DNA of 64,000 nt from an uncultured Thermoplasmata archaeon (GTDB taxonomy: Archaea; Thermoplasmatota; Thermoplasmata; UBA10834), in the NCBI GenBank assembly GCA_963719945.1, contig CAVRDX010000001.1, positions 192,001 through 256,000 on the forward strand, read 5' to 3'. The notes beneath the pieces were generated by a model that worked only from the letters and a program-made list of their open reading frames with translations, was not told the origin of the DNA and made no database searches. The position numbers and the translations under genes are program-made. Below are positions 24,586 to 31,523 of this stretch, piece by piece (the first letter of the stretch is position 1; every line of letters begins with the position of its first letter).

Positions 24586-25704
24586 CTACTGGTTCTTCAG
24601 CCTGCTAATGATGGCCTCTCCCATGGCAGTGGTCGACATCTTGCCACCCACATCCGCGGTCCTGTGTTTTCCATCGCCCAAGACACTCATGACAGCTGAT
24701 TCCGTCTCATGAGCAGCATCCTTGTACCCCAGAGTATCCAACATCAGGGCCGATGAGAGGATTGCTCCGACTGGGTTGGCGAGGCCTTTTCCCGCGATAT
24801 CTGGAGCTGAACCGTGGACAGGCTCGAACATGCTCACACCGCTCGGGTTGATGTTCCCCGATGGCGCAAACCCTAGTCCTCCCTGCAGAGCTGCTCCCAG
24901 ATCCGTGAGGATGTCTCCGAACAGGTTGGGTGTGACAAGGACCTTGAATCTCTCAGGGTTCCTCACCATGTGAAGTGCAACCGCATCGACATACTGGAAC
25001 TCCTTCTCAATCCCGTAGATGTTCGATGCTTTCTCCACCTCTTCTCTCCAGAGCCCGTAGACCTCTGTGAGGACATTCGCCTTGTCGACGGAGGTCACGA
25101 GGTCGAGACCTTTCTTCTTCGCGAAATCGAACGCGTAGTCGATCACGCGCCTCGCACCTTGCCTGGTGATGATCCCTATCTGATATGCCATCTCGTCTGC
25201 ATCCTTGAGGTCGATTCCTATGTCGAACTTGACCTCATAGGCCTTTCTGATGAGATTGAGCTGCTCTCTCGAAGATCCCGTCTTGACCCGGCTGCCCAGA
25301 CCGACATAGAAATCCTCGGTGTTCTCCCGGATGAAGTACATGTCTATCCTCTTATCTCCAGCCAATGCGGTAGGCACTCCCTGGAACAGCTTCACCGGTC
25401 TGAGGTTGACATACTGGTCGAAATGGAATCTGAGTCTGAGCAGAATGCCTTTCTCAAGCACACCTGGTTTTACTCGAGGGTCACCCATCGCGCCAAGCAG
25501 GATGGACTCCTTCTCCTCCAATCTGGATATGGTTTCGTCTGAGAGCACCTCTCCAGTCTTCAGGTAGTGCGCCGCCCCCAAAGGGAACTCTTCGAAATCG
25601 AGCTGGATGCCATTTCTTTCGCAGACGACATCCAAGACCTTGCGCGCTTCCCTGACTACCTCTGGTCCTATCCCATCTCCTGGAATCACTCCGATCTTGT
25701 GCAA
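24586..25704 (-). CDS. leuB: 3-isopropylmalate dehydrogenase family
   Basis: IPGDGIGPEV, RENTE, DKANV, NLFGDILTD, FEPVHGSAPDIAG. Confidence 0.9.
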   Translation of the reverse strand: MHKIGVIPGDGIGPEVVREARKVLDVVCERNGIQLDFEEFPLGAAHYLKTGEVLSDETISRLEEKESILLGAMGDPRVKPGVLEKGILLRLRFHFDQYVNLRPVKLFQGVPTALAGDKRIDMYFIRENTEDFYVGLGSRVKTGSSREQLNLIRKAYEVKFDIGIDLKDADEMAYQIGIITRQGARRVIDYAFDFAKKKGLDLVTSVDKANVLTEVYGLWREEVEKASNIYGIEKEFQYVDAVALHMVRNPERFKVLVTPNLFGDILTDLGAALQGGLGFAPSGNINPSGVSMFEPVHGSAPDIAGKGLANPVGAILSSALMLDTLGYKDAAHETESAVMSVLGDGKHRTADVGGKMSTTAMGEAIISRLKNQ

Positions 25705-26189
25705 CCCAATCTCTCCTTGGTGTAGGGTACTAGACCCCCTTTCTCCATAAGCATCATCACGAAAGGCGGATAGCTGGCGAATGTGGTCTCCTTTCCGGAG
25801 CTGTGGTTCCTGGCGACACCCTTTGATAAATCCACCTCGACGTCATCTCCCTGGTCGACCTCCAGCTTCGCCTCGATGACTGGTAACCCTATGTTGATCG
25901 CGTTTCTGAAGAATATCCTGGCAAATGATTCTGCGACGACGCAGGACACCCCTGCCCCTATCAATGCTCTGGGGGCATGCTCTCGACTCGAACCGCACCC
26001 GAAGTTCCTTCCGGCCACTATCACATCGCCTTCCTTCACGTTGGCGGAGAATTCCGGCATGACCTTCACGAATGCGTACTTGGCAAGCTCAGCGCTGTTC
26101 ATCGTGACGAGATACTCGGCGGGTATGATCTGATCAGTATCTACATTGTCCCCGAACACCCATGCCTTCCCGGCGAAATGCGATTTCAT
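25686..26189 (-). CDS. leuD: 3-isopropylmalate dehydratase small subunit
   Basis: DNVDTDQIIP, NFGCGSSREHA, SFARIFFRN. Confidence 0.93.
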   Translation of the reverse strand: MKSHFAGKAWVFGDNVDTDQIIPAEYLVTMNSAELAKYAFVKVMPEFSANVKEGDVIVAGRNFGCGSSREHAPRALIGAGVSCVVAESFARIFFRNAINIGLPVIEAKLEVDQGDDVEVDLSKGVARNHSSGKETTFASYPPFVMMLMEKGGLVPYTKERLGCTRSE

Positions 26190-27445
26190 CCAGTCACCTC
26201 AGATGGGTCGACTATTCTCCCAGCAACTGCGCTCGCCGCGACGACTGCGGGACCCGCAAGGTAGACCTCAGATTCTTTGTGCCCCATTCTGCCAACGAAG
26301 TTCCTGTTCGTCGTGCTGACGCATCTTTCCCCTGGAGCGAGCACACCCATGTAGCCTCCGAGACATGCACCGCATGTCGGGCCGGATATGAACGCACCCG
26401 CATCGGAGAATATCTTGAACAGCCCTTCTTCCATCGCCTTGTCGAAGACTTCCTTGCTCGCAGGCACTACGATCATCCTGACTCCTTCGTGTACCTTCTT
26501 CCCTTTCAGTATCGCGGCCGCGACTCTGAGATCCTCTATCCTTCCGTTCGTACATGATCCCAGATACGCCTGGTCAATGGCAACTCCGACCTCGCTCGCA
26601 GGTGCCACATTGCTGGGCAGGAACGGTTTCGCGACCACTGGGACGATGTCTTTCGCATCGTACTTCCTGATATCCGAATACTCGGCATCCTTGTCCGCGA
26701 AGACCTTTTCATAACTGCCTCTGACACGGCCCTTCAGATAGTCATCCACCTTCGCGTCAGGTGGTATCATGCATGCCTTTGCTCCCGCTTCTATGCCCAT
26801 GTTGGATATCGTGACCCTTTCAGAGACGGGCAATGCGAAGATAGTGTCACCGACGACTTCCATCGATTGATAGAGTGCGCCTTCGACCCCGATGTCTCCT
26901 ATGATTGTGAGTATTATGTCCTTTCCAGACACATGCTTTCCAAGCTGTCCGTCTACTTCGAACTTCATCGATTCTGGCACTTTGAACCATAGGGCGCCTC
27001 TCGCGAACACCGTTGCGGCCTCAGTGCTTCCGATCCCTGTGGCGAATGCGCCCATCGCTCCGTATGAGCACGTATGCGAATCGGCTCCGACTATCAGCCT
27101 TCCAGGTGCAACGAACCCCTTCTCGATCATCAGTTGGTGGCAGACGCCGCTGGACCCTATTTCGAAGTAGTTGCGTATCTTGTACTTGGATGCGAAATCC
27201 CTCATCTTCTTCGCCTGGATCGCAGATGCCACGTCCTTGTTCGGAACGTAGTGGTCCGGGATCAGAACCATCTTCTTCTCCAGCGGGGGTGTGCAGAACC
27301 CCTCGAACTCATCGAACGCAGCTGGAGCCGTGATGTCATTCACCATCACATAGTCGACCTCTGCTTCGATGATCTCTCCTGCGCGGACGTCCTTTTGAGC
27401 CTTCGTTGACAATATCTTCTCAGCTATGGTCTTTCCCAATGCCAC
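26186..27445 (-). CDS. leuC: 3-isopropylmalate dehydratase large subunit
   Basis: GVCHQ, GADSHTC, GSCTNGR, CGACLG, TNRNF; start GTG 27445. Confidence 0.93.
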   Translation of the reverse strand: MALGKTIAEKILSTKAQKDVRAGEIIEAEVDYVMVNDITAPAAFDEFEGFCTPPLEKKMVLIPDHYVPNKDVASAIQAKKMRDFASKYKIRNYFEIGSSGVCHQLMIEKGFVAPGRLIVGADSHTCSYGAMGAFATGIGSTEAATVFARGALWFKVPESMKFEVDGQLGKHVSGKDIILTIIGDIGVEGALYQSMEVVGDTIFALPVSERVTISNMGIEAGAKACMIPPDAKVDDYLKGRVRGSYEKVFADKDAEYSDIRKYDAKDIVPVVAKPFLPSNVAPASEVGVAIDQAYLGSCTNGRIEDLRVAAAILKGKKVHEGVRMIVVPASKEVFDKAMEEGLFKIFSDAGAFISGPTCGACLGGYMGVLAPGERCVSTTNRNFVGRMGHKESEVYLAGPAVVAASAVAGRIVDPSEVTG

Positions 27446-27455
27446 GCACCCCTCT

Positions 27456-29096
27456 TCAGTATGCCTTCCTCTTGACTTTTCCGCCGTTTGCGCCAAGCTT
27501 GTGCATCCAGAGCCTGTTCAATGCTTCCACGGTGGCGTCAACGCTCGTCGTCACTATGTCCGAACCGACGCTCTTTCCGAGTGCGAGGAGTTGAGAATCC
27601 TCACAGTCTCCGAGCTTCACAGTGACCTCACAGAGTGCGTTAGACCCGCCAGTTATCGCTTCGAGCCTATATTGCTTCAGCACGATGTTCTTCGATACAG
27701 CTGTCCTTATCGCGCTCAGGCTCGCATCTATCGGGCCAACGCCGGTCTCCGAAGCCCGCCTGACCTCTCCATCTATGTTGAGGACGACCGTGGCCGTGGG
27801 TGTGAAGTTCAGTCCCGTGAAGACTGTGAATTCCTCGAGCCTTATCACAGGCTCCTTCTCCTCACTTATCTCGTCATAGGCGACTGCGAGCAATTCCGCA
27901 TCATCCAGCTTCTTCCCGGACTCTGCGTACTTCTTTATCCTCGCGACCACTTCTTTGAGCTGGTCTCCGGTGAGGTCGAGTCCATATTCCTTCAGTTTGT
28001 TCTGGACCGCGTGGACTCCGGAGTGCTTGCCGACTACGAACACCCTCTCCTTGCCGACGATCTCAGGTCTCATTGGCTCGTATGTTGAGCACTCGCTAAG
28101 CACCCCGTGAACATGTATTCCCGCTTCGTGTGAGAATGCGTTCTCGCCGACGATGGCCTTGTTCGGTTGGACAGGTATCGCAGTGAGCTGTGACACCAGT
28201 CTCGACACGAAAGCCATCTTCCTGGTGTTGATCCGGGTCTTTATCCCGTAGAACGCCTGAAGTCCCATCACGACCTCCTCGAGGGCTGCGTTTCCAGCAC
28301 GCTCTCCAAGGCCGTTTATCGTACAGTGGACCTCCTCCGCACCCCCGAGTATGCCCGCCAGGGAGTTGGCGACTGAGAGTCCGAAATCATCATGGCAGTG
28401 CACTGCGAGAGGTACCTTAGTCGTCTTCTTGATCTCAGCGACGAACTGCATCATCGCTTGCGGAGTCATGACTCCGACGGTATCTGGGATGTCGATCCTG
28501 TCGACGCCTACCGCCTCGATCGCTTTGTGTACGGTGTTGAGGAATTCGAGGTCTGTCCGCGTGCCATCCTCGCAGCTGAATTCGACTATGAACCCGTGGT
28601 CTTTTCCATATTGGACTGCGGTCACAGCCTTTTCAACGGCCTCCTCCCTGGATATCTTGAGCTTCTTCTCCAGGTGCACCTTGGAGGTCGCAAGGAAAAT
28701 ATGGATAGAATCGACATCACACGCCAATGCGGCATCTATGTCCGGCTTGCCCGCGCGACAGAGTCCGCAGATCTCGCTCTTGAGTCCCGCCGCTGCGATC
28801 TTCTTCACAGCCTCGGCTTCGCCCTCTGAGTTGACTGGGAAGCCGGCTTCGATTATGTCCACTCCCAGTTCATCCAAGGCCTGTGCGATCTTGAGCTTGT
28901 CGTCGATTGATAGCGCCACATTGGGCGTCTGCTCGCCATCTCTCAGGGTAGTGTCCAGAATCTTCACAGTCTCGGGCATCCTGGTTGCCTGAAAGATCTG
29001 CTTATTGTATTCACTGACGAAGACCCCTTTGTCTGGGACCTTGAACACGCCGACTTCTTCTTGTTTAGCACTCTCACTCGGAGCTTGTGTGGGCAT
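27456..29096 (-). CDS. leuA: 2-isopropylmalate synthase / citramalate synthase family with C-terminal regulatory domain
   Basis: DTTLRDGEQ, HCHDDFG, GLGERAGNA, HEAGIH, GVGPIDA; start ATG 29096 after GGAGAG. Confidence 0.88.
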   Translation of the reverse strand: MPTQAPSESAKQEEVGVFKVPDKGVFVSEYNKQIFQATRMPETVKILDTTLRDGEQTPNVALSIDDKLKIAQALDELGVDIIEAGFPVNSEGEAEAVKKIAAAGLKSEICGLCRAGKPDIDAALACDVDSIHIFLATSKVHLEKKLKISREEAVEKAVTAVQYGKDHGFIVEFSCEDGTRTDLEFLNTVHKAIEAVGVDRIDIPDTVGVMTPQAMMQFVAEIKKTTKVPLAVHCHDDFGLSVANSLAGILGGAEEVHCTINGLGERAGNAALEEVVMGLQAFYGIKTRINTRKMAFVSRLVSQLTAIPVQPNKAIVGENAFSHEAGIHVHGVLSECSTYEPMRPEIVGKERVFVVGKHSGVHAVQNKLKEYGLDLTGDQLKEVVARIKKYAESGKKLDDAELLAVAYDEISEEKEPVIRLEEFTVFTGLNFTPTATVVLNIDGEVRRASETGVGPIDASLSAIRTAVSKNIVLKQYRLEAITGGSNALCEVTVKLGDCEDSQLLALGKSVGSDIVTTSVDATVEALNRLWMHKLGANGGKVKRKAY

Positions 29097-29109
29097 CAAA
29101 ACACTCTCC

Positions 29110-29143
29110 AAAAAATCCTACACTGCAGCATCTAGGCTAGGAT
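29110..29143 (-). terminator. Hairpin ATCCTA...TAGGAT plus U6 tract in the leu leader (putative attenuator)
   Basis: Minus strand reads ATCCTAgcctagatgctgcagtgTAGGATTTTTT immediately before the leuA RBS. Confidence 0.55.
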
Positions 29144-29191
29144 AAGCAGCCCCAAGGGCAGAATAAGCTGAATCTTATTCTCTTGTGCCAT
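29132..29191 (-). CDS. Putative leu-operon leader peptide MAQENKIQLILPLGLLILA
   Basis: GGAGG RBS 6 nt upstream of ATG; 6 Leu + 3 Ile codons among codons 7-18; stop 36 nt before the leuA ATG. Confidence 0.7.
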   Translation of the reverse strand: MAQENKIQLILPLGLLILA

Positions 29192-29262
29192 TCCTTGCCT
29201 CCATGTCATAGTGGGGTCACACCCTTCTTGGGCATGACAATCATCTGCATGGTCTCGATTGA

Positions 29263-29275
29263 TATAAACTTTTGC
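29263..29275 (-). promoter_or_regulatory. BRE/TATA promoter of the leu operon
   Basis: Minus strand GCAAAAG-TTTATA, ~170 nt upstream of leuA, implying a long leader. Confidence 0.6.
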
Positions 29276-29399
29276 TGGCTCAATGCTGGCCAATCATGTT
29301 CGGTTGCTGGACACATCTGTACAATGCATGGCTGGCCATACGCATCCTACTTTGGAAGGATAGAAATATGATGTGATTTGTACGAGGCTGGTGGTATTC

Positions 29400-30221
29400 G
29401 TGAAGGATAAGGTCGTCGCATTCCAGGGTGAACAGGGAGCCTATTCCGAAGACGCCTGTGTCAAGTACTTCGGAGCCGATGTCACCGCTAGACCCTATCC
29501 AGATTTTCAATCCGTCTTCGAGGCGGTCGAACGGGATGAGGTCACACATGCGGTCGTTCCTGTCGAGAACTCGATAGAAGGGAGCGTCACGCAGGTCAAC
29601 GACCTCCTGCTGGACCACGACTTGGGGATATCCGGTGAGGTGATAGTCCCTGTCAAGCATTGCCTCATGGTTGCCAAGGGAGCTTCTGAGGAAACAATCC
29701 GAGAAGTACTCAGTCATCCACAGGCTCTGGGACAATGCAGAAAATTCCTTCAAAGGCATAATGCTTGGCGGACGATAGCATCCTACGATACCGCCGGCAG
29801 CGCGAAGATCGTTGCCGAATCAAAGCGTCTGGACCTTGCAGCGATCGCCAGCAAGAGGGCCGCGTCGCTATACGGTCTGGAGATCCTCAGGGAGGACATC
29901 CAGAACGAGGATACCAATGTCACGAGGTTCTTTGTGATGGAGAAGAACCCAGGTACGGTCGAGAGCGCCGACAAGACTTCGATAGTCTTCGCCACGAAGA
30001 ACGCTCCAGGCGCGTTGTACAAATGCCTCGGAGAGTTCGCTTCCAGAGGGGTCAATCTATCCAAGTTGGAGTCCAGACCGAGGAGGAACAAGCCTTGGGT
30101 GTACGTTTTCTTCGCAGACATCGAGGGCGGAGTGGAGGATCCAGACTGCCACGCTGCCATAGGTGGGCTGCTCAAGACCGGTGCATTTGTTAAAGTCCTC
30201 GGCTCGTACAAGAAAGCCTGA
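29400..30221 (+). CDS. pheA: Prephenate dehydratase
   Basis: AFQGEQGAYS, PVENSIEGSV, SHPQALGQC, TRF, ACT domain ESRP; start GTG 29400. Confidence 0.95.
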   Translation: MKDKVVAFQGEQGAYSEDACVKYFGADVTARPYPDFQSVFEAVERDEVTHAVVPVENSIEGSVTQVNDLLLDHDLGISGEVIVPVKHCLMVAKGASEETIREVLSHPQALGQCRKFLQRHNAWRTIASYDTAGSAKIVAESKRLDLAAIASKRAASLYGLEILREDIQNEDTNVTRFFVMEKNPGTVESADKTSIVFATKNAPGALYKCLGEFASRGVNLSKLESRPRRNKPWVYVFFADIEGGVEDPDCHAAIGGLLKTGAFVKVLGSYKKA

Positions 30222-30302
30222 CATCTGCTTTCGAATGTGATAAAACAAGAAAATGGGTTTTTCAAAGGGTTTCTCGAAGACAGCCTATTTCACGTGAGTC
30301 AC

Positions 30303-31523
30303 TCACTTATCTAGGCCCCATGTCCGCCCTTCCCAGCTGGAGAATGACAGGACGAATTCGTACCAGCCCGAGTCCTGTGCGAATGGTACGTCCACATAGT
30401 CGTCTTTGATGCTGTGCATACCGTCGTTCGTGGACGGGGCATAGATGGCAATGCCATAGGACTTGTAGTTATGGATGCTGTTGTAGATTGCGAACACACC
30501 GCCTTCAACGGCATCTATGACTCTCTCAGCTGCATCCTTCAACTCATCGTTGTCGATGTAGTCATCCGCGAGCAAGTTCTTGGCGAACCCCTTAAGATCG
30601 ACGTTGTATGGGTAATAGTACTCCTGTGCACAGATCAAGTCCTGCTGGATATTGTTCATGTATGCTCTGAGAGACTCAAGCAATTCTGCTCCCAGGTCTT
30701 CTACTGCATCGAAGAGGTCGTCCATGTACTCCATGTCCCAGGCACTCATCGTCCAGTCGACATATCCTGACGTGGATGAGTAGTATTCTCCATAGTCTTT
30801 GACGATGACTTTTGATAGTTCTTTCCCGTCCATATCGGCATCTGCAACAAGGTCCCTGGCGATGGCGTCATATGGGAAGCCAGCTCCGGGCACTGTCTCC
30901 TCGCTGAAGACCACGTAATCTGCGCAGTCCATGACCTGATATGCGACTTCGGGCATGGCCATCAGGCACAGGTCGAAGCCAACCACATCGAGCACGATGC
31001 CAGTTTCTTCCTTGGCGCCCATGAGGGCGTCTCTCAACTCGACCATCGTGATGCATTCATCATTTCCAGTCAATGCTTCAGTGGTATCGTCCCAGCACAA
31101 TCCGCGCCATCCGCCACCGTGATCCCAGAGTATGAGTGCGTACCTGTCAGCTGGGTAGTCTGTGCAGGTGTTCACGATGAACTCCTCGAGGACCGCCGGG
31201 TCTGACATGTCGACTTCCTTCGGGTATCCGTATTCATCGCCGATTGAATAATCAGAATCTCCCTCATTCACATACAGAAGGTTCGCATCTCCGCTTAGTG
31301 GGTCCATGAGAACCACAAAGTTGACATTCTCATCGGAACCAACGGTCTCTAGCCATTCAATGTTCAAATCGCCGAATGTCTCCAGGCTGTTGTCGGCGTC
31401 AAGATAGACCATGAAGGTCCATTCTGCGCCTTCATCTCCGGCCGACATCGTGGCTGGGACAACCATCACCGCTAGCATAGCGACTGCCGCTAGCGCGACA
31501 AGTCTTCTACTCAATTCCCTCAC
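30303..31523 (-). CDS. Secreted clostripain-family (C11) cysteine peptidase
   Basis: Signal peptide; WTFMVYLDADN, WDHGGGW, GFDLCLM, SEETVPG. Confidence 0.9.
   Translation of the reverse strand: MRELSRRLVALAAVAMLAVMVVPATMSAGDEGAEWTFMVYLDADNSLETFGDLNIEWLETVGSDENVNFVVLMDPLSGDANLLYVNEGDSDYSIGDEYGYPKEVDMSDPAVLEEFIVNTCTDYPADRYALILWDHGGGWRGLCWDDTTEALTGNDECITMVELRDALMGAKEETGIVLDVVGFDLCLMAMPEVAYQVMDCADYVVFSEETVPGAGFPYDAIARDLVADADMDGKELSKVIVKDYGEYYSSTSGYVDWTMSAWDMEYMDDLFDAVEDLGAELLESLRAYMNNIQQDLICAQEYYYPYNVDLKGFAKNLLADDYIDNDELKDAAERVIDAVEGGVFAIYNSIHNYKSYGIAIYAPSTNDGMHSIKDDYVDVPFAQDSGWYEFVLSFSSWEGRTWGLDK

What the first reader, a model, noticed from the sequence alone, without database searches (positions are those of the whole stretch)
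29096..29275. Leu/Ile-rich leader peptide with competing hairpins upstream of an archaeal leuA-C-D-B operon: candidate ribosome-mediated attenuator
Seen: between the TATA box (29263-29268) and leuA (ATG 29096) there is an unannotated 19-codon ORF (29191-29132, minus strand) with a perfect GGAGG RBS, encoding MAQENKIQLILPLGLLILA. Codons 7-18 hold 6 Leu (CTT, CTG, TTG, CTG, CTT, CTA) and 3 Ile. The same RNA has hairpin AGAATAAG/CTTATTCT (29160-29181) and a near-duplicate arm CTTATCCT that can pair either with AGAATAAG or, via ATCCTA, with TAGGAT in front of a U6 tract (29110-29143) abutting the leuA RBS. GGGCTG/TAGCCT is a further competing stem. Established: this is the architecture of bacterial leuL/ilvL attenuators, and archaea couple transcription and translation. 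Inference: Leu/Ile-tRNA sensing by ribosome stalling controls termination or leuA RBS access; to my knowledge this is barely described in archaea. The leader stop lies inside the last hairpin, unlike the E. coli layout, so a ribosome finishing the leader would unmask the U-tract. That would suit archaeal U-tract/aCPSF1 termination.
Basis: partly seen in the sequence, partly recalled or inferred. Interest (0 to 1): 0.9.

Follow-up and report, generated by a model that had tools for sequence, protein, structure and literature searches.

The report
Leucine-sensing leader peptide before archaeal leuA
A tiny gene rich in leucine codons is conserved in front of the leucine-synthesis operon of this uncultured Thermoplasmata archaeon and in three related families, methanogens included; it looks like the ribosome-read amino-acid gauges of bacteria, for which I found no published archaeal case.

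Summary
Downstream of a TATA box lie a GGAGG Shine-Dalgarno (SD, ribosome-binding) motif, a 19-codon ORF (MAQENKIQLILPLGLLILA, 6 Leu and 3 Ile), a T6 tract and leuA-C-D-B.

A Leu-rich short ORF sits at this position in every leuA locus examined with enough upstream sequence: about 29 species of the family, 3 of a sister family, and 12 of an mcrA-carrying family of the class. The SD and start are kept. All indels inside the ORF are multiples of three. The stop keeps its place but varies (TAG, TAA, TGA). The gap from stop to leuA is 31-42 nt.

The same genome has an L/V/I-rich ORF before ilvB and an Ile4 ORF before a second ileS.

The proposed terminator hairpin is weak and never forms in constrained folding. 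Instead the leader tends to fold into one long stem. This stem encloses the leader's ribosome site and ORF end and stops just before the U tract, but its core pairing is not beyond what base composition gives. The leuA ribosome site lies in a conserved hairpin.

A Leu-sensing leader is likely (about 0.75). Whether it acts on termination or on translation is unresolved, and no expression data could be obtained. This scan has noted similar leaders in Asgard, DPANN and another Thermoplasmata lineage.

The parts
29262..29268 (-). TATA box TTTATAT, with an A-rich BRE-like flank
   Evidence: Read. TTTATA is invariant in 23 relatives. The predicted transcription start is about 29241-29237; this is inferred from the usual archaeal spacing and was not mapped.
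29216..29238 (-). P1, a 5'-terminal hairpin: GUCAUGCCC / AAGAA / GGGUGUGAC
   Evidence: RNAalifold predicts it. In 5 of 6 pairs both sides have changed; 89-92% of cells are paired; 0 of 500 shuffles reach this.
29192..29215 (-). 5' strand of the leader stem: outer CCCACU (29215-29210), middle CAU (29205-29203), SD GGAGG (29202-29198), R1 AGGCAAGGA (29200-29192)
   Evidence: Minimum-free-energy folds of 27 homologues and pair counts.
29132..29191 (-). Leader ORF, 19 codons plus TAG: MAQENKIQLILPLGLLILA
   Evidence: The frame is kept by 3n indels, the stop varies TAG/TAA/TGA, and the SD and start are kept.
29160..29181 (-). Apical hairpin AGAAUAAG/CUUAUUCU. Its 3' arm is the first Leu and Ile codons.
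   Evidence: Relatives have a hairpin here in another register, (G/A)AGCA/UGCUU.
29149..29159 (-). Hairpin H, GCCC-UUG-GGGC (Pro-Leu-Gly codons)
   Evidence: The stem is kept in 27 of 28, while the loop codon varies between L, I, D and S.
29134..29142 (-). R2, UCCUAGCCU: the last codons plus the first stop base. It is pyrimidine-rich and can pair with R1 (P2), with GGGCUG (B), with UAGGAU (T) or with the leuA SD.
29117..29131 (-). 3' strand of the leader stem after the stop: AUG (29131-29129) and CAGUGUAGG (29125-29117)
   Evidence: The distance from the stop to the U tract is 15-18 nt in all but one of 28 species.
29110..29115 (-). T6 tract directly before the leuA SD
   Evidence: It is T4-T6 in 25 of 28 relatives and UUCU or UUUCU in 3. 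It is rare in this genome.
29080..29109 (-). P4, a hairpin over the leuA start. SD GGAG (29109-29106) pairs with CUCC (29083-29080) and GUGU (29104-29101) with ACAC (29090-29087); the AUG at 29096 sits in the loop.
   Evidence: 95-98% paired and nearly invariant. CUCC is kept although leuA codon 5 encodes A, S, P or T. The methanogen family has a matching hairpin made of other bases.
24586..29096 (-). leuA (29096-27456), leuC (about 27496-26186), leuD (26189-25686), leuB (25704-24586)
   Evidence: NCBIfam: IPMS 654 bits, LeuC family 586 bits, LeuD-arch 198 bits, IPMDH 403 bits.

Best explanation
The 19-codon ORF is a translated leader peptide that gauges charged tRNA-Leu.

After a 5' hairpin (P1), the free leader RNA tends to fold into one long, interrupted stem. 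Its 5' strand holds the leader's own ribosome-binding site. Its 3' strand holds the last Leu/Ile/Ala codons, the stop codon and the next 15 nt or so. Its base ends 2-4 nt before a U tract that abuts the leuA ribosome site.

When Leu is scarce, a ribosome stalled on the Leu codons sits on the top and the 3' strand of this stem and keeps it open. When Leu is plentiful, the ribosome finishes and leaves, and the stem closes. Closure also shuts off further leader translation.

I favour stem closure next to the U tract causing premature 3'-end formation or termination before leuA. That would make it a ribosome-occluded terminator, closer in logic to E. coli pyrBI than to the three-hairpin trp/leu design.

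Shown by comparative analysis: the ORF and its coding signature, the Leu bias, P1, the recurrence of the long stem in predicted folds, the P4 hairpin, and the rarity of the U tract. Inferred: translation itself, stalling, the transcription start, and every step that links stem folding to leuA output.

My odds: a Leu-sensing leader of some kind, about 0.75. Output by termination at the U tract, about 0.4; that second figure is the confidence given for this statement as a whole.
For: ORF conservation. The ORF is present in 23 of 23 family loci that have upstream sequence, in 6 further species, in 3 of 3 loci of the sister family and in 12 of 12 loci of an mcrA-bearing family. The N-terminal halves have diverged, but a Leu run always ends 0-2 codons before the stop.

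Coding signature. Gaps inside the ORF are all 3 nt, whereas gaps outside it are 1, 2 or 4 nt. The stop is TAG, TAA or TGA at a fixed place. Where it mutated to AAA, the ORF ends 4 codons later. GGAGG lies 5-7 nt before the start.

Regulon. ilvB (727 bits) is preceded by MSAGQVNLTLLLRTLEVIVDLRIVGL, and a second ileS by MNSAANSLIIIIG.

Stem. The minimum-free-energy fold is the same long stem in nearly all 27 homologues. In constrained folding, P2 forms with about 9 pairs whenever the leader ribosome site is free. P2 is 90% paired with 2 compensated pairs. The outer and middle helices are 73.5% paired, and 0 of 500 shuffles reach their covariation. A closing helix around the leader ORF also occurs in the sister family. 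In the methanogen family it is 98.8% paired with 2 covarying pairs.

U tract. T6 or longer occurs in 0.3% of upstream regions. A run of T4 or more directly before an SD is found at only 9 genes, among them leuA and ileS2. Hairpin-plus-U6/U7 motifs do occur at gene ends in this genome.
Against: There are no expression data.

The core P2 pairing is not beyond composition. 28% of Leu-rich coding windows from this genome pair with this ribosome site as well as the real partner does (median 18% across the homologues). The fold z-scores are modest: -1.08 here and a median of -1.55.

The U tract is UUCU or UUUCU in 3 of 28 species, and in 3 species the stem base lies 10 nt from it. T tracts are not enriched downstream of genes in this genome: 4.0% against 4.5% upstream.

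From my own knowledge, archaeal intrinsic termination is not known to need a hairpin.

There is a timing problem. A ribosome sitting on the stop codon still covers the 3' strand while the polymerase is at the U tract. Closure therefore needs ribosome release during a polymerase pause.
Confidence: 0.4

Rival explanations
1. The Leu-sensing leader is the same, but its output is translational. The leuA ribosome site is held in hairpin P4, between the closed leader stem and its own anti-SD inside leuA. A ribosome stalled in the leader keeps the stem open and so gives a single-stranded standby platform. Alternatively, it stops the pyrimidine-rich ORF end from pairing with the SD. Either way leuA initiation rises. 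Untranslated leuA mRNA might then also be lost through polarity.
For: P4 is 95-98% paired. Its anti-SD CUCC is kept even though the amino acid of that codon varies. The methanogen family has the equivalent hairpin made of other bases: GGUUUG/CAAACC, 72 of 72 cells paired, with one compensated pair. That hairpin shares GGU with the closing helix, which makes a ready two-state switch. Species with a degenerate U tract show the strongest complementarity between the ORF end and the ribosome site, -11 to -18 kcal/mol. This mechanism has no timing problem. The actinobacterial LEU element pairs Leu codons with the leuA SD (PMC1262725).
Against: Constrained folding shows no consistent gain in SD or AUG accessibility when a ribosome is placed on the Leu codons or on the stop. 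The Leu-codon:SD pairing is 83% paired with no covariation. In the methanogen family the exclusivity gives the opposite logic (closed stem means open ribosome site) unless the other register is the one used.
Confidence: 0.3
2. GCCC/GGGC acts as 1:2, GGGCUG/UAGCCU as the 2:3 antiterminator, and AUCCUA/UAGGAU plus U6 as the 3:4 terminator.
For: All three stems exist and are conserved. When the leader ribosome site is blocked, the 2:3 stem forms with about 5.5 pairs. By eye on the alignment, the 4-bp core UCCU/AGGA keeps a fixed register to both the stop and the U tract, and changes C-G to U.G to U-A in one genus.
Against: The terminator stem has a median of 0 predicted pairs in every state in 27 homologues. 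It is 77% paired, and 109-214 of 500 shuffles do as well. It is only 4-6 bp. The first two stems are invariant and lie in a conserved peptide, so they say nothing either way. The stop codon lies inside the terminator stem, so a ribosome that finishes the ORF blocks it.
Confidence: 0.1
3. It is not a Leu sensor. The ORF encodes a small hydrophobic peptide with a function of its own, or it is a generic upstream ORF, or the conservation belongs to an RNA bound by a protein or a tRNA and the reading frame is incidental.
For: The C-terminal LPLGLL(I/L)LA is conserved as a peptide and at synonymous sites within the family, which is more than a plain codon counter needs. A conserved TGGACA-N4-TGTACA motif and a GACCATG box near the promoter point to regulation by a protein as well. 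In S. coelicolor, mutating leader Leu codons before leuA did not behave as classical attenuation (cited in PMC1262725).
Against: Across families only the Leu run near the stop is shared, not the peptide. The hydrophobic stretch is 11 residues, too short for a membrane helix. Leaders before ilvB and ileS2 in the same genome match their products. The 3n indels and changing stop codons argue for translation. There was no Rfam match, T-box and riboswitch families included.
Confidence: 0.15

Closest known systems
Enterobacterial leu operon leader (leuL; Rfam RF00512 Leu_leader) and its sisters trpL, hisL, pheL and ilvL
   Same: A short, SD-preceded ORF enriched in codons for the pathway's end product lies directly upstream of leuA, and a U tract follows before the structural gene. 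Pairing that sequesters the leader ribosome site after the first round has been described for trpL (from my memory, not checked here).
   Different: This one is archaeal: TATA promoter, archaeal polymerase and ribosome. It has no Rfam match. Its Leu codons are dispersed and mixed (CUU, CUG, UUG, CUA) rather than a run of one rare codon. The stop codon lies inside the stem's 3' strand. There is no GC-rich local terminator hairpin. The recurring fold is one long stem that encloses the ORF.
Actinobacterial LEU element upstream of leuA (Seliverstov et al. 2005, PMC1262725)
   Same: [quoted passage not shown] The mechanism is unresolved.
   Different: The LEU element is a compact pseudoknot with a base stem made of the Leu run and the SD. 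Here the SD is held by an anti-SD inside leuA (P4), and the Leu-codon:SD pairing shows no covariation.
E. coli pyrBI attenuator (from my own knowledge)
   Same: A leader ORF runs into a terminator stem, and a ribosome on the stem's strand physically prevents folding and termination.
   Different: pyrBI senses UTP through polymerase pausing, not an amino acid through codon stalling. Its hairpin is short and GC-rich.
Corynebacterium glutamicum ilvBNC attenuator (PMC11857589)
   Same: A branched-chain amino-acid leader peptide, in part leaderless, like the ilvB leader of this genome.
   Different: It is bacterial, with a three-hairpin model supported by mutations.
ermC-type translational attenuation (from my own knowledge)
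   Same: A ribosome stalled in a leader ORF remodels pairing that hides the downstream ribosome site.
   Different: Stalling there is caused by a drug, not by tRNA supply. The four-segment layout was not found here.

Membership tests
Leader-peptide (ribosome-mediated) attenuator, classical definition | A short ORF upstream of a biosynthetic operon, enriched in codons of the end-product amino acid | tested here: met
   6 of 19 codons are Leu here. Relatives have 4-7 Leu, always clustered near the stop, in three families.
Leader-peptide (ribosome-mediated) attenuator, classical definition | The ORF is translated | tested here: inconclusive
   The comparative signature is strong: SD, start, 3n indels, stop identity varying at a fixed place.
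Leader-peptide (ribosome-mediated) attenuator, classical definition | Mutually exclusive terminator and antiterminator hairpins chosen by ribosome position | tested here: inconclusive
   The proposed terminator stem never forms in models. Alternative partners for the ORF end do exist. The long stem recurs, but its core pairing is not beyond composition.
Leader-peptide (ribosome-mediated) attenuator, classical definition | An intrinsic terminator (stem plus U tract) between the leader and the first structural gene | tested here: inconclusive
   T6 lies 2-4 nt after the base of the long stem. It is T4-T6 in 25 of 28 species and degenerate in 3. No 3'-end mapping was possible.
Leader-peptide (ribosome-mediated) attenuator, classical definition | Expression responds to charged tRNA-Leu | not testable with these tools
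   This needs culture or reporter experiments.
Rfam RF00512 Leu_leader | A match to the covariance model | tested here: not met
   cmscan of 28000-30500 at E up to 10 gave only two chance lncRNA matches.
Actinobacterial LEU element | A base stem between the Leu-codon run and the leuA SD, with a pseudoknot | tested here: inconclusive
   UUCUCC:GGAGAG is 83% paired with no covariation. The pseudoknot was not examined.
T-box or amino-acid riboswitch | A match to known RNA families | tested here: not met
   No Rfam match.

The most novel reading that the evidence does not exclude
Thermoplasmata archaea, including mcrA-bearing methanogens, run a small regulon of product-matched leader peptides (Leu before leuA, Leu/Val/Ile before ilvB, Ile before a second ileS). 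These work by a design unlike the bacterial three-hairpin attenuator. The leader ORF and its own ribosome site are enclosed in one long stem whose base abuts a U tract and the main gene's ribosome site, and a stalled ribosome acts simply as a wedge that keeps the stem open. This would be ribosome-mediated attenuation in the archaeal domain, arisen or kept independently of bacteria.
Probability: 0.45. Interest if true: 0.85.

Novelty: new variant of a known kind. Interest (0 to 1): 0.8.

Why it matters
Leader-peptide attenuation is a textbook bacterial mechanism that depends on coupled transcription and translation. Archaea couple the two as well, yet six full-text searches found no paper describing such a device in archaea.

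A conserved Leu leader before leuA would show that archaea read amino-acid supply through the ribosome. So would its sister leaders before ilvB and ileS2 in the same genome, and the counterpart in an mcrA-bearing family. That family may include cultured Methanomassiliicoccales, which I infer rather than know.

The question then becomes directly testable. It also offers a natural case for asking how an archaeal polymerase, whose termination relies on U tracts and a cleavage factor, responds to RNA structure and to a trailing ribosome.

Tried and rejected
- The Rfam scan gave nothing relevant.

- Fetching genome regions as loci failed once.

- A genome-wide scan for short ORFs enriched in one amino acid was too noisy to find further leaders beyond Leu. 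Runs of IIII, WW or HHHH gave mostly intragenic hits. Three Ile-run candidates were not upstream of ileS. The true one was found through the ileS family search.

- The two leuA paralogues (C3:202170 and C4:72616) showed no L/I/V-rich short ORF upstream.

- The sigma-70 and terminator pattern scan was uninformative, with 15 terminator-like sites against 13.5 expected.

- The other seven genes with a T tract next to their SD show no leader ORF.

- An aromatic-rich 26-codon ORF on the + strand before pheA (29296-29376) is not conserved in relatives and was dropped.

- BLAST of the leader core found no second copy in the genome.

- Equilibrium modelling of leuA SD accessibility with ribosomes placed on the leader gave no consistent switch.

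Full report
**1. What is there**

On the minus strand the order is as follows.
- TATA box TTTATAT, 29268-29262.
- A hairpin at the predicted RNA 5' end, 29238-29216.
- GGAGG, 29202-29198.
- A 19-codon ORF, 29191-29132, reading MAQENKIQLILPLGLLILA*.
- 16 nt of spacer.
- T6, 29115-29110.
- GGAGAG, 29109-29104.
- The leuA ATG at 29096.

NCBIfam identifies leuA, leuC, leuD and leuB in a row.

One correction to the surroundings. The 159-aa minus-strand ORF at 29280-29759 has no family match. It lies antisense to a prephenate dehydratase gene (PF00800, 223 bits) on the plus strand, whose likely start is GTG 29400. The region is therefore a divergent leuA/pheA intergenic region.

**2. Lineage**

Close relatives are uncultured Thermoplasmata MAGs, for example RBG_19FT_COMBO_56_21, RBG_13_57_23 and UBA9653. 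This genome and its family lack mcrA.

**3.

I fetched leuA loci from 41 relatives and 151 genomes of the class and read their upstream regions.

- *Own family.* In all 23 loci with upstream sequence, and in 6 further species, an SD-preceded ORF of 19-23 codons ends 33-35 nt before leuA (about 23 nt in the one species with the shifted stop). Examples are MAPQSNKLLILPLGLLLLA, MKHDTSTGPLLLLPLGLLILA and (V)KLSTIGLLVLPIGLLLHLV.
- *Sister family.* The peptides are different but again Leu-rich near the stop: MDAKRSSASILPLQLLLLLC, ..LDLLLLLLG and ..AILSLLLLLLG.
- *mcrA-bearing family of the same class.* All 12 loci read carry a 12-14-codon ORF, such as MIFAQHIGLLLIE, MIFTDSADLLLLE and MICYASLGLILL, ending 31-33 nt before leuA (about 39 nt in one locus).
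- *Two further families.* They show weaker candidates ending in ..VLLRA and ..MLLLA.

The alignments carry a coding signature. Every gap inside the ORF is 3 nt, while gaps outside it are 1, 2 or 4 nt. The stop is TAG, TAA or TGA at one position. In one species it became AAA, and the frame then closes 4 codons later. The N-terminal half varies freely.

Background is low. Only 8 comparable Leu-rich short ORFs exist in the whole genome.

The Leu codons are mixed, not rare. The leader uses CUU twice, CUG twice, UUG once and CUA once. Genome usage is CTC .33, CTG .29, TTG .15, CTT .14, CTA .07.

**4. Sister leaders in the same genome**

Earlier notes of this scan pointed to them, and I checked them myself.
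- ilvB (TIGR00118, 727 bits, C1:553951) is preceded by MSAGQVNLTLLLRTLEVIVDLRIVGL at C1:553807-553887.
- A second ileS (748 bits, start C4:209437) is preceded by MNSAANSLIIIIG at C4:209340-209381. It is followed by a helix that encloses the Ile codons, then U4 and GGAGGG.

Leaders matched to their products are hard to explain except as amino-acid sensors.

**5. RNA structure**

*P1.* The 5' hairpin P1 covaries well. In 5 of 6 pairs both sides have changed.

I folded the nascent RNA of 27 homologues with a ribosome placed at initiation, at the first Leu, at the last Leu, at the stop, or absent. The stem never formed.

*The long stem.* The same interrupted stem appears in nearly every homologue. 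It has four layers.
- An outer helix, CCCACUG with CAGUG-GG.
- A middle helix, CAY with RUG.
- P2, in which AGGCUAGGA (between the leader SD and its AUG) pairs with UCCUAGCCU (the last codons plus the first stop base).
- Apical hairpins over the first Leu codons and over Pro-Leu-Gly.

The base of the stem lies 2-4 nt from the U tract in most species. P2 is 90% paired with two compensated pairs. The outer and middle helices are 73.5% paired, and 0 of 500 shuffles reach their covariation. A helix closing around the leader ORF recurs in the sister family. In the methanogen family it is ACCGUCA/UGACGGU, 98.8% paired.

*A caution.* The P2 duplex is not beyond composition. Leu-rich coding windows from this genome pair with the purine-rich ribosome site as well as the real partner in 28% of cases here, with a median of 18% across homologues. 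Fold z-scores are modest.

*P4.* The leuA SD and AUG lie in a hairpin in which GGAG pairs with CUCC and GUGU with ACAC. It is 95-98% paired. CUCC is kept although the codon it lies in encodes A, S, P or T, which points to an RNA-level constraint. The methanogen family has the equivalent hairpin made of other bases: GGUUUG/CAAACC, 72 of 72 cells paired, with one compensated pair. It overlaps the closing helix by three bases.

**6. The U tract**

T6 or longer occurs in 0.3% of 60-nt upstream regions. A run of T4 or more next to an SD occurs at just 9 genes, including leuA and ileS2. A few gene ends carry a hairpin plus U6 or U7.

Against this, T tracts are not enriched after genes, and 3 of 28 relatives have UUCU or UUUCU.

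**7. Mechanism**

I commit to a Leu-tRNA-sensing leader peptide at about 0.75. A ribosome stalled on the Leu codons keeps the long stem open. Once the ribosome is released the stem closes, which also silences the leader's own ribosome site.

The output is unresolved.
- *Termination or 3'-end formation at the U tract, about 0.4.* This gives the right logic and is off by default. It needs ribosome release during a polymerase pause, and it rests on a hairpin dependence that archaeal termination is not known to have.
- *Control of leuA initiation through P4 or a standby site, about 0.3.* This fits the conserved P4 and the species without a U tract. Equilibrium models, however, show no consistent opening of the SD.

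**8. Known relatives and novelty**

There is no Rfam match. Six literature searches found no archaeal leader-peptide attenuator. The nearest described cases are bacterial: leuL, the actinobacterial LEU element (PMC1262725) and the C. glutamicum ilvBNC attenuator.

This scan has already noted similar leaders on other DNA: in Asgard, in DPANN and in another Thermoplasmata lineage, and on ilvB and ileS in this genome. I treated those notes as leads only.

Noticed in passing
window 29400-30221 (+) and 29280-29759 (-): The gene divergent from leuA is a prephenate dehydratase (PF00800 plus an ACT domain). Its likely start is GTG 29400, after GGTGG. The 159-aa minus-strand ORF lies antisense to it, matches no family, and is probably not a gene. 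A second TATA-like box (TAGAAATA, about 29361-29368) sits about 30 nt before the pheA start and is conserved in relatives.
   Followed up: partly
window 29308-29323 (+): A TGGACA-N4-TGTACA motif lies between the leuA and pheA promoters. It is conserved, with small variations, in all family members read. It may be a transcription-factor site, which would give a second layer of control.
   Followed up: no
window 29248-29254 (-): GACCATG (GRCCATG in relatives) is conserved between the leuA TATA box and the predicted transcription start, where an archaeal repressor or an initiator element would sit.
   Followed up: no
own genome C1:553807-553887 (+), outside the window: A 26-codon L/V/I-rich ORF (MSAGQVNLTLLLRTLEVIVDLRIVGL) starts about 27 nt after a TATA-like box, so it looks leaderless. 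It ends 63 nt before ilvB.
   Followed up: partly
own genome C4:209340-209381 (+), outside the window: A 13-codon ORF, MNSAANSLIIIIG, precedes the second of two ileS genes. The helix CUCGGCA/UGCCGAG encloses the Ile codons, and U4-GGAGGG follows.
   Followed up: partly
L052-L062 (leuA loci of the mcrA-bearing family), about 20 nt before to 25 nt after the leuA start: Two fully conserved helices share the bases GGU and so cannot coexist. One is the helix closing the leader (ACCGUCA/UGACGGU). The other is a hairpin enclosing the leuA SD and AUG (GGUUUG/CAAACC, with a U-A to C-G compensation in L057). This is a candidate two-state switch.
   Followed up: partly
window 29067-29096 (-): The first 10 codons of leuA are nearly invariant at the nucleotide level across the family, including synonymous sites, although they lie in an N-terminal extension outside the catalytic domain. 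GAGUG occurs three times around the start.
   Followed up: partly
own genome C4:39973 (+) and C1:484085 (-), outside the window: There are bacterial-looking terminators at gene ends: GUUUGG-AGC-CCAAAC followed by U6, and GGGCUAG...CUAGCCC followed by a U7-containing tail.
   Followed up: no
L041/L048 (relative), leader stop: In one species the leader stop is mutated (TAA to AAA). The ORF runs 4 codons further, to a TGA inside the segment that pairs with the 5' strand. This is a natural variant of stop position.
   Followed up: no
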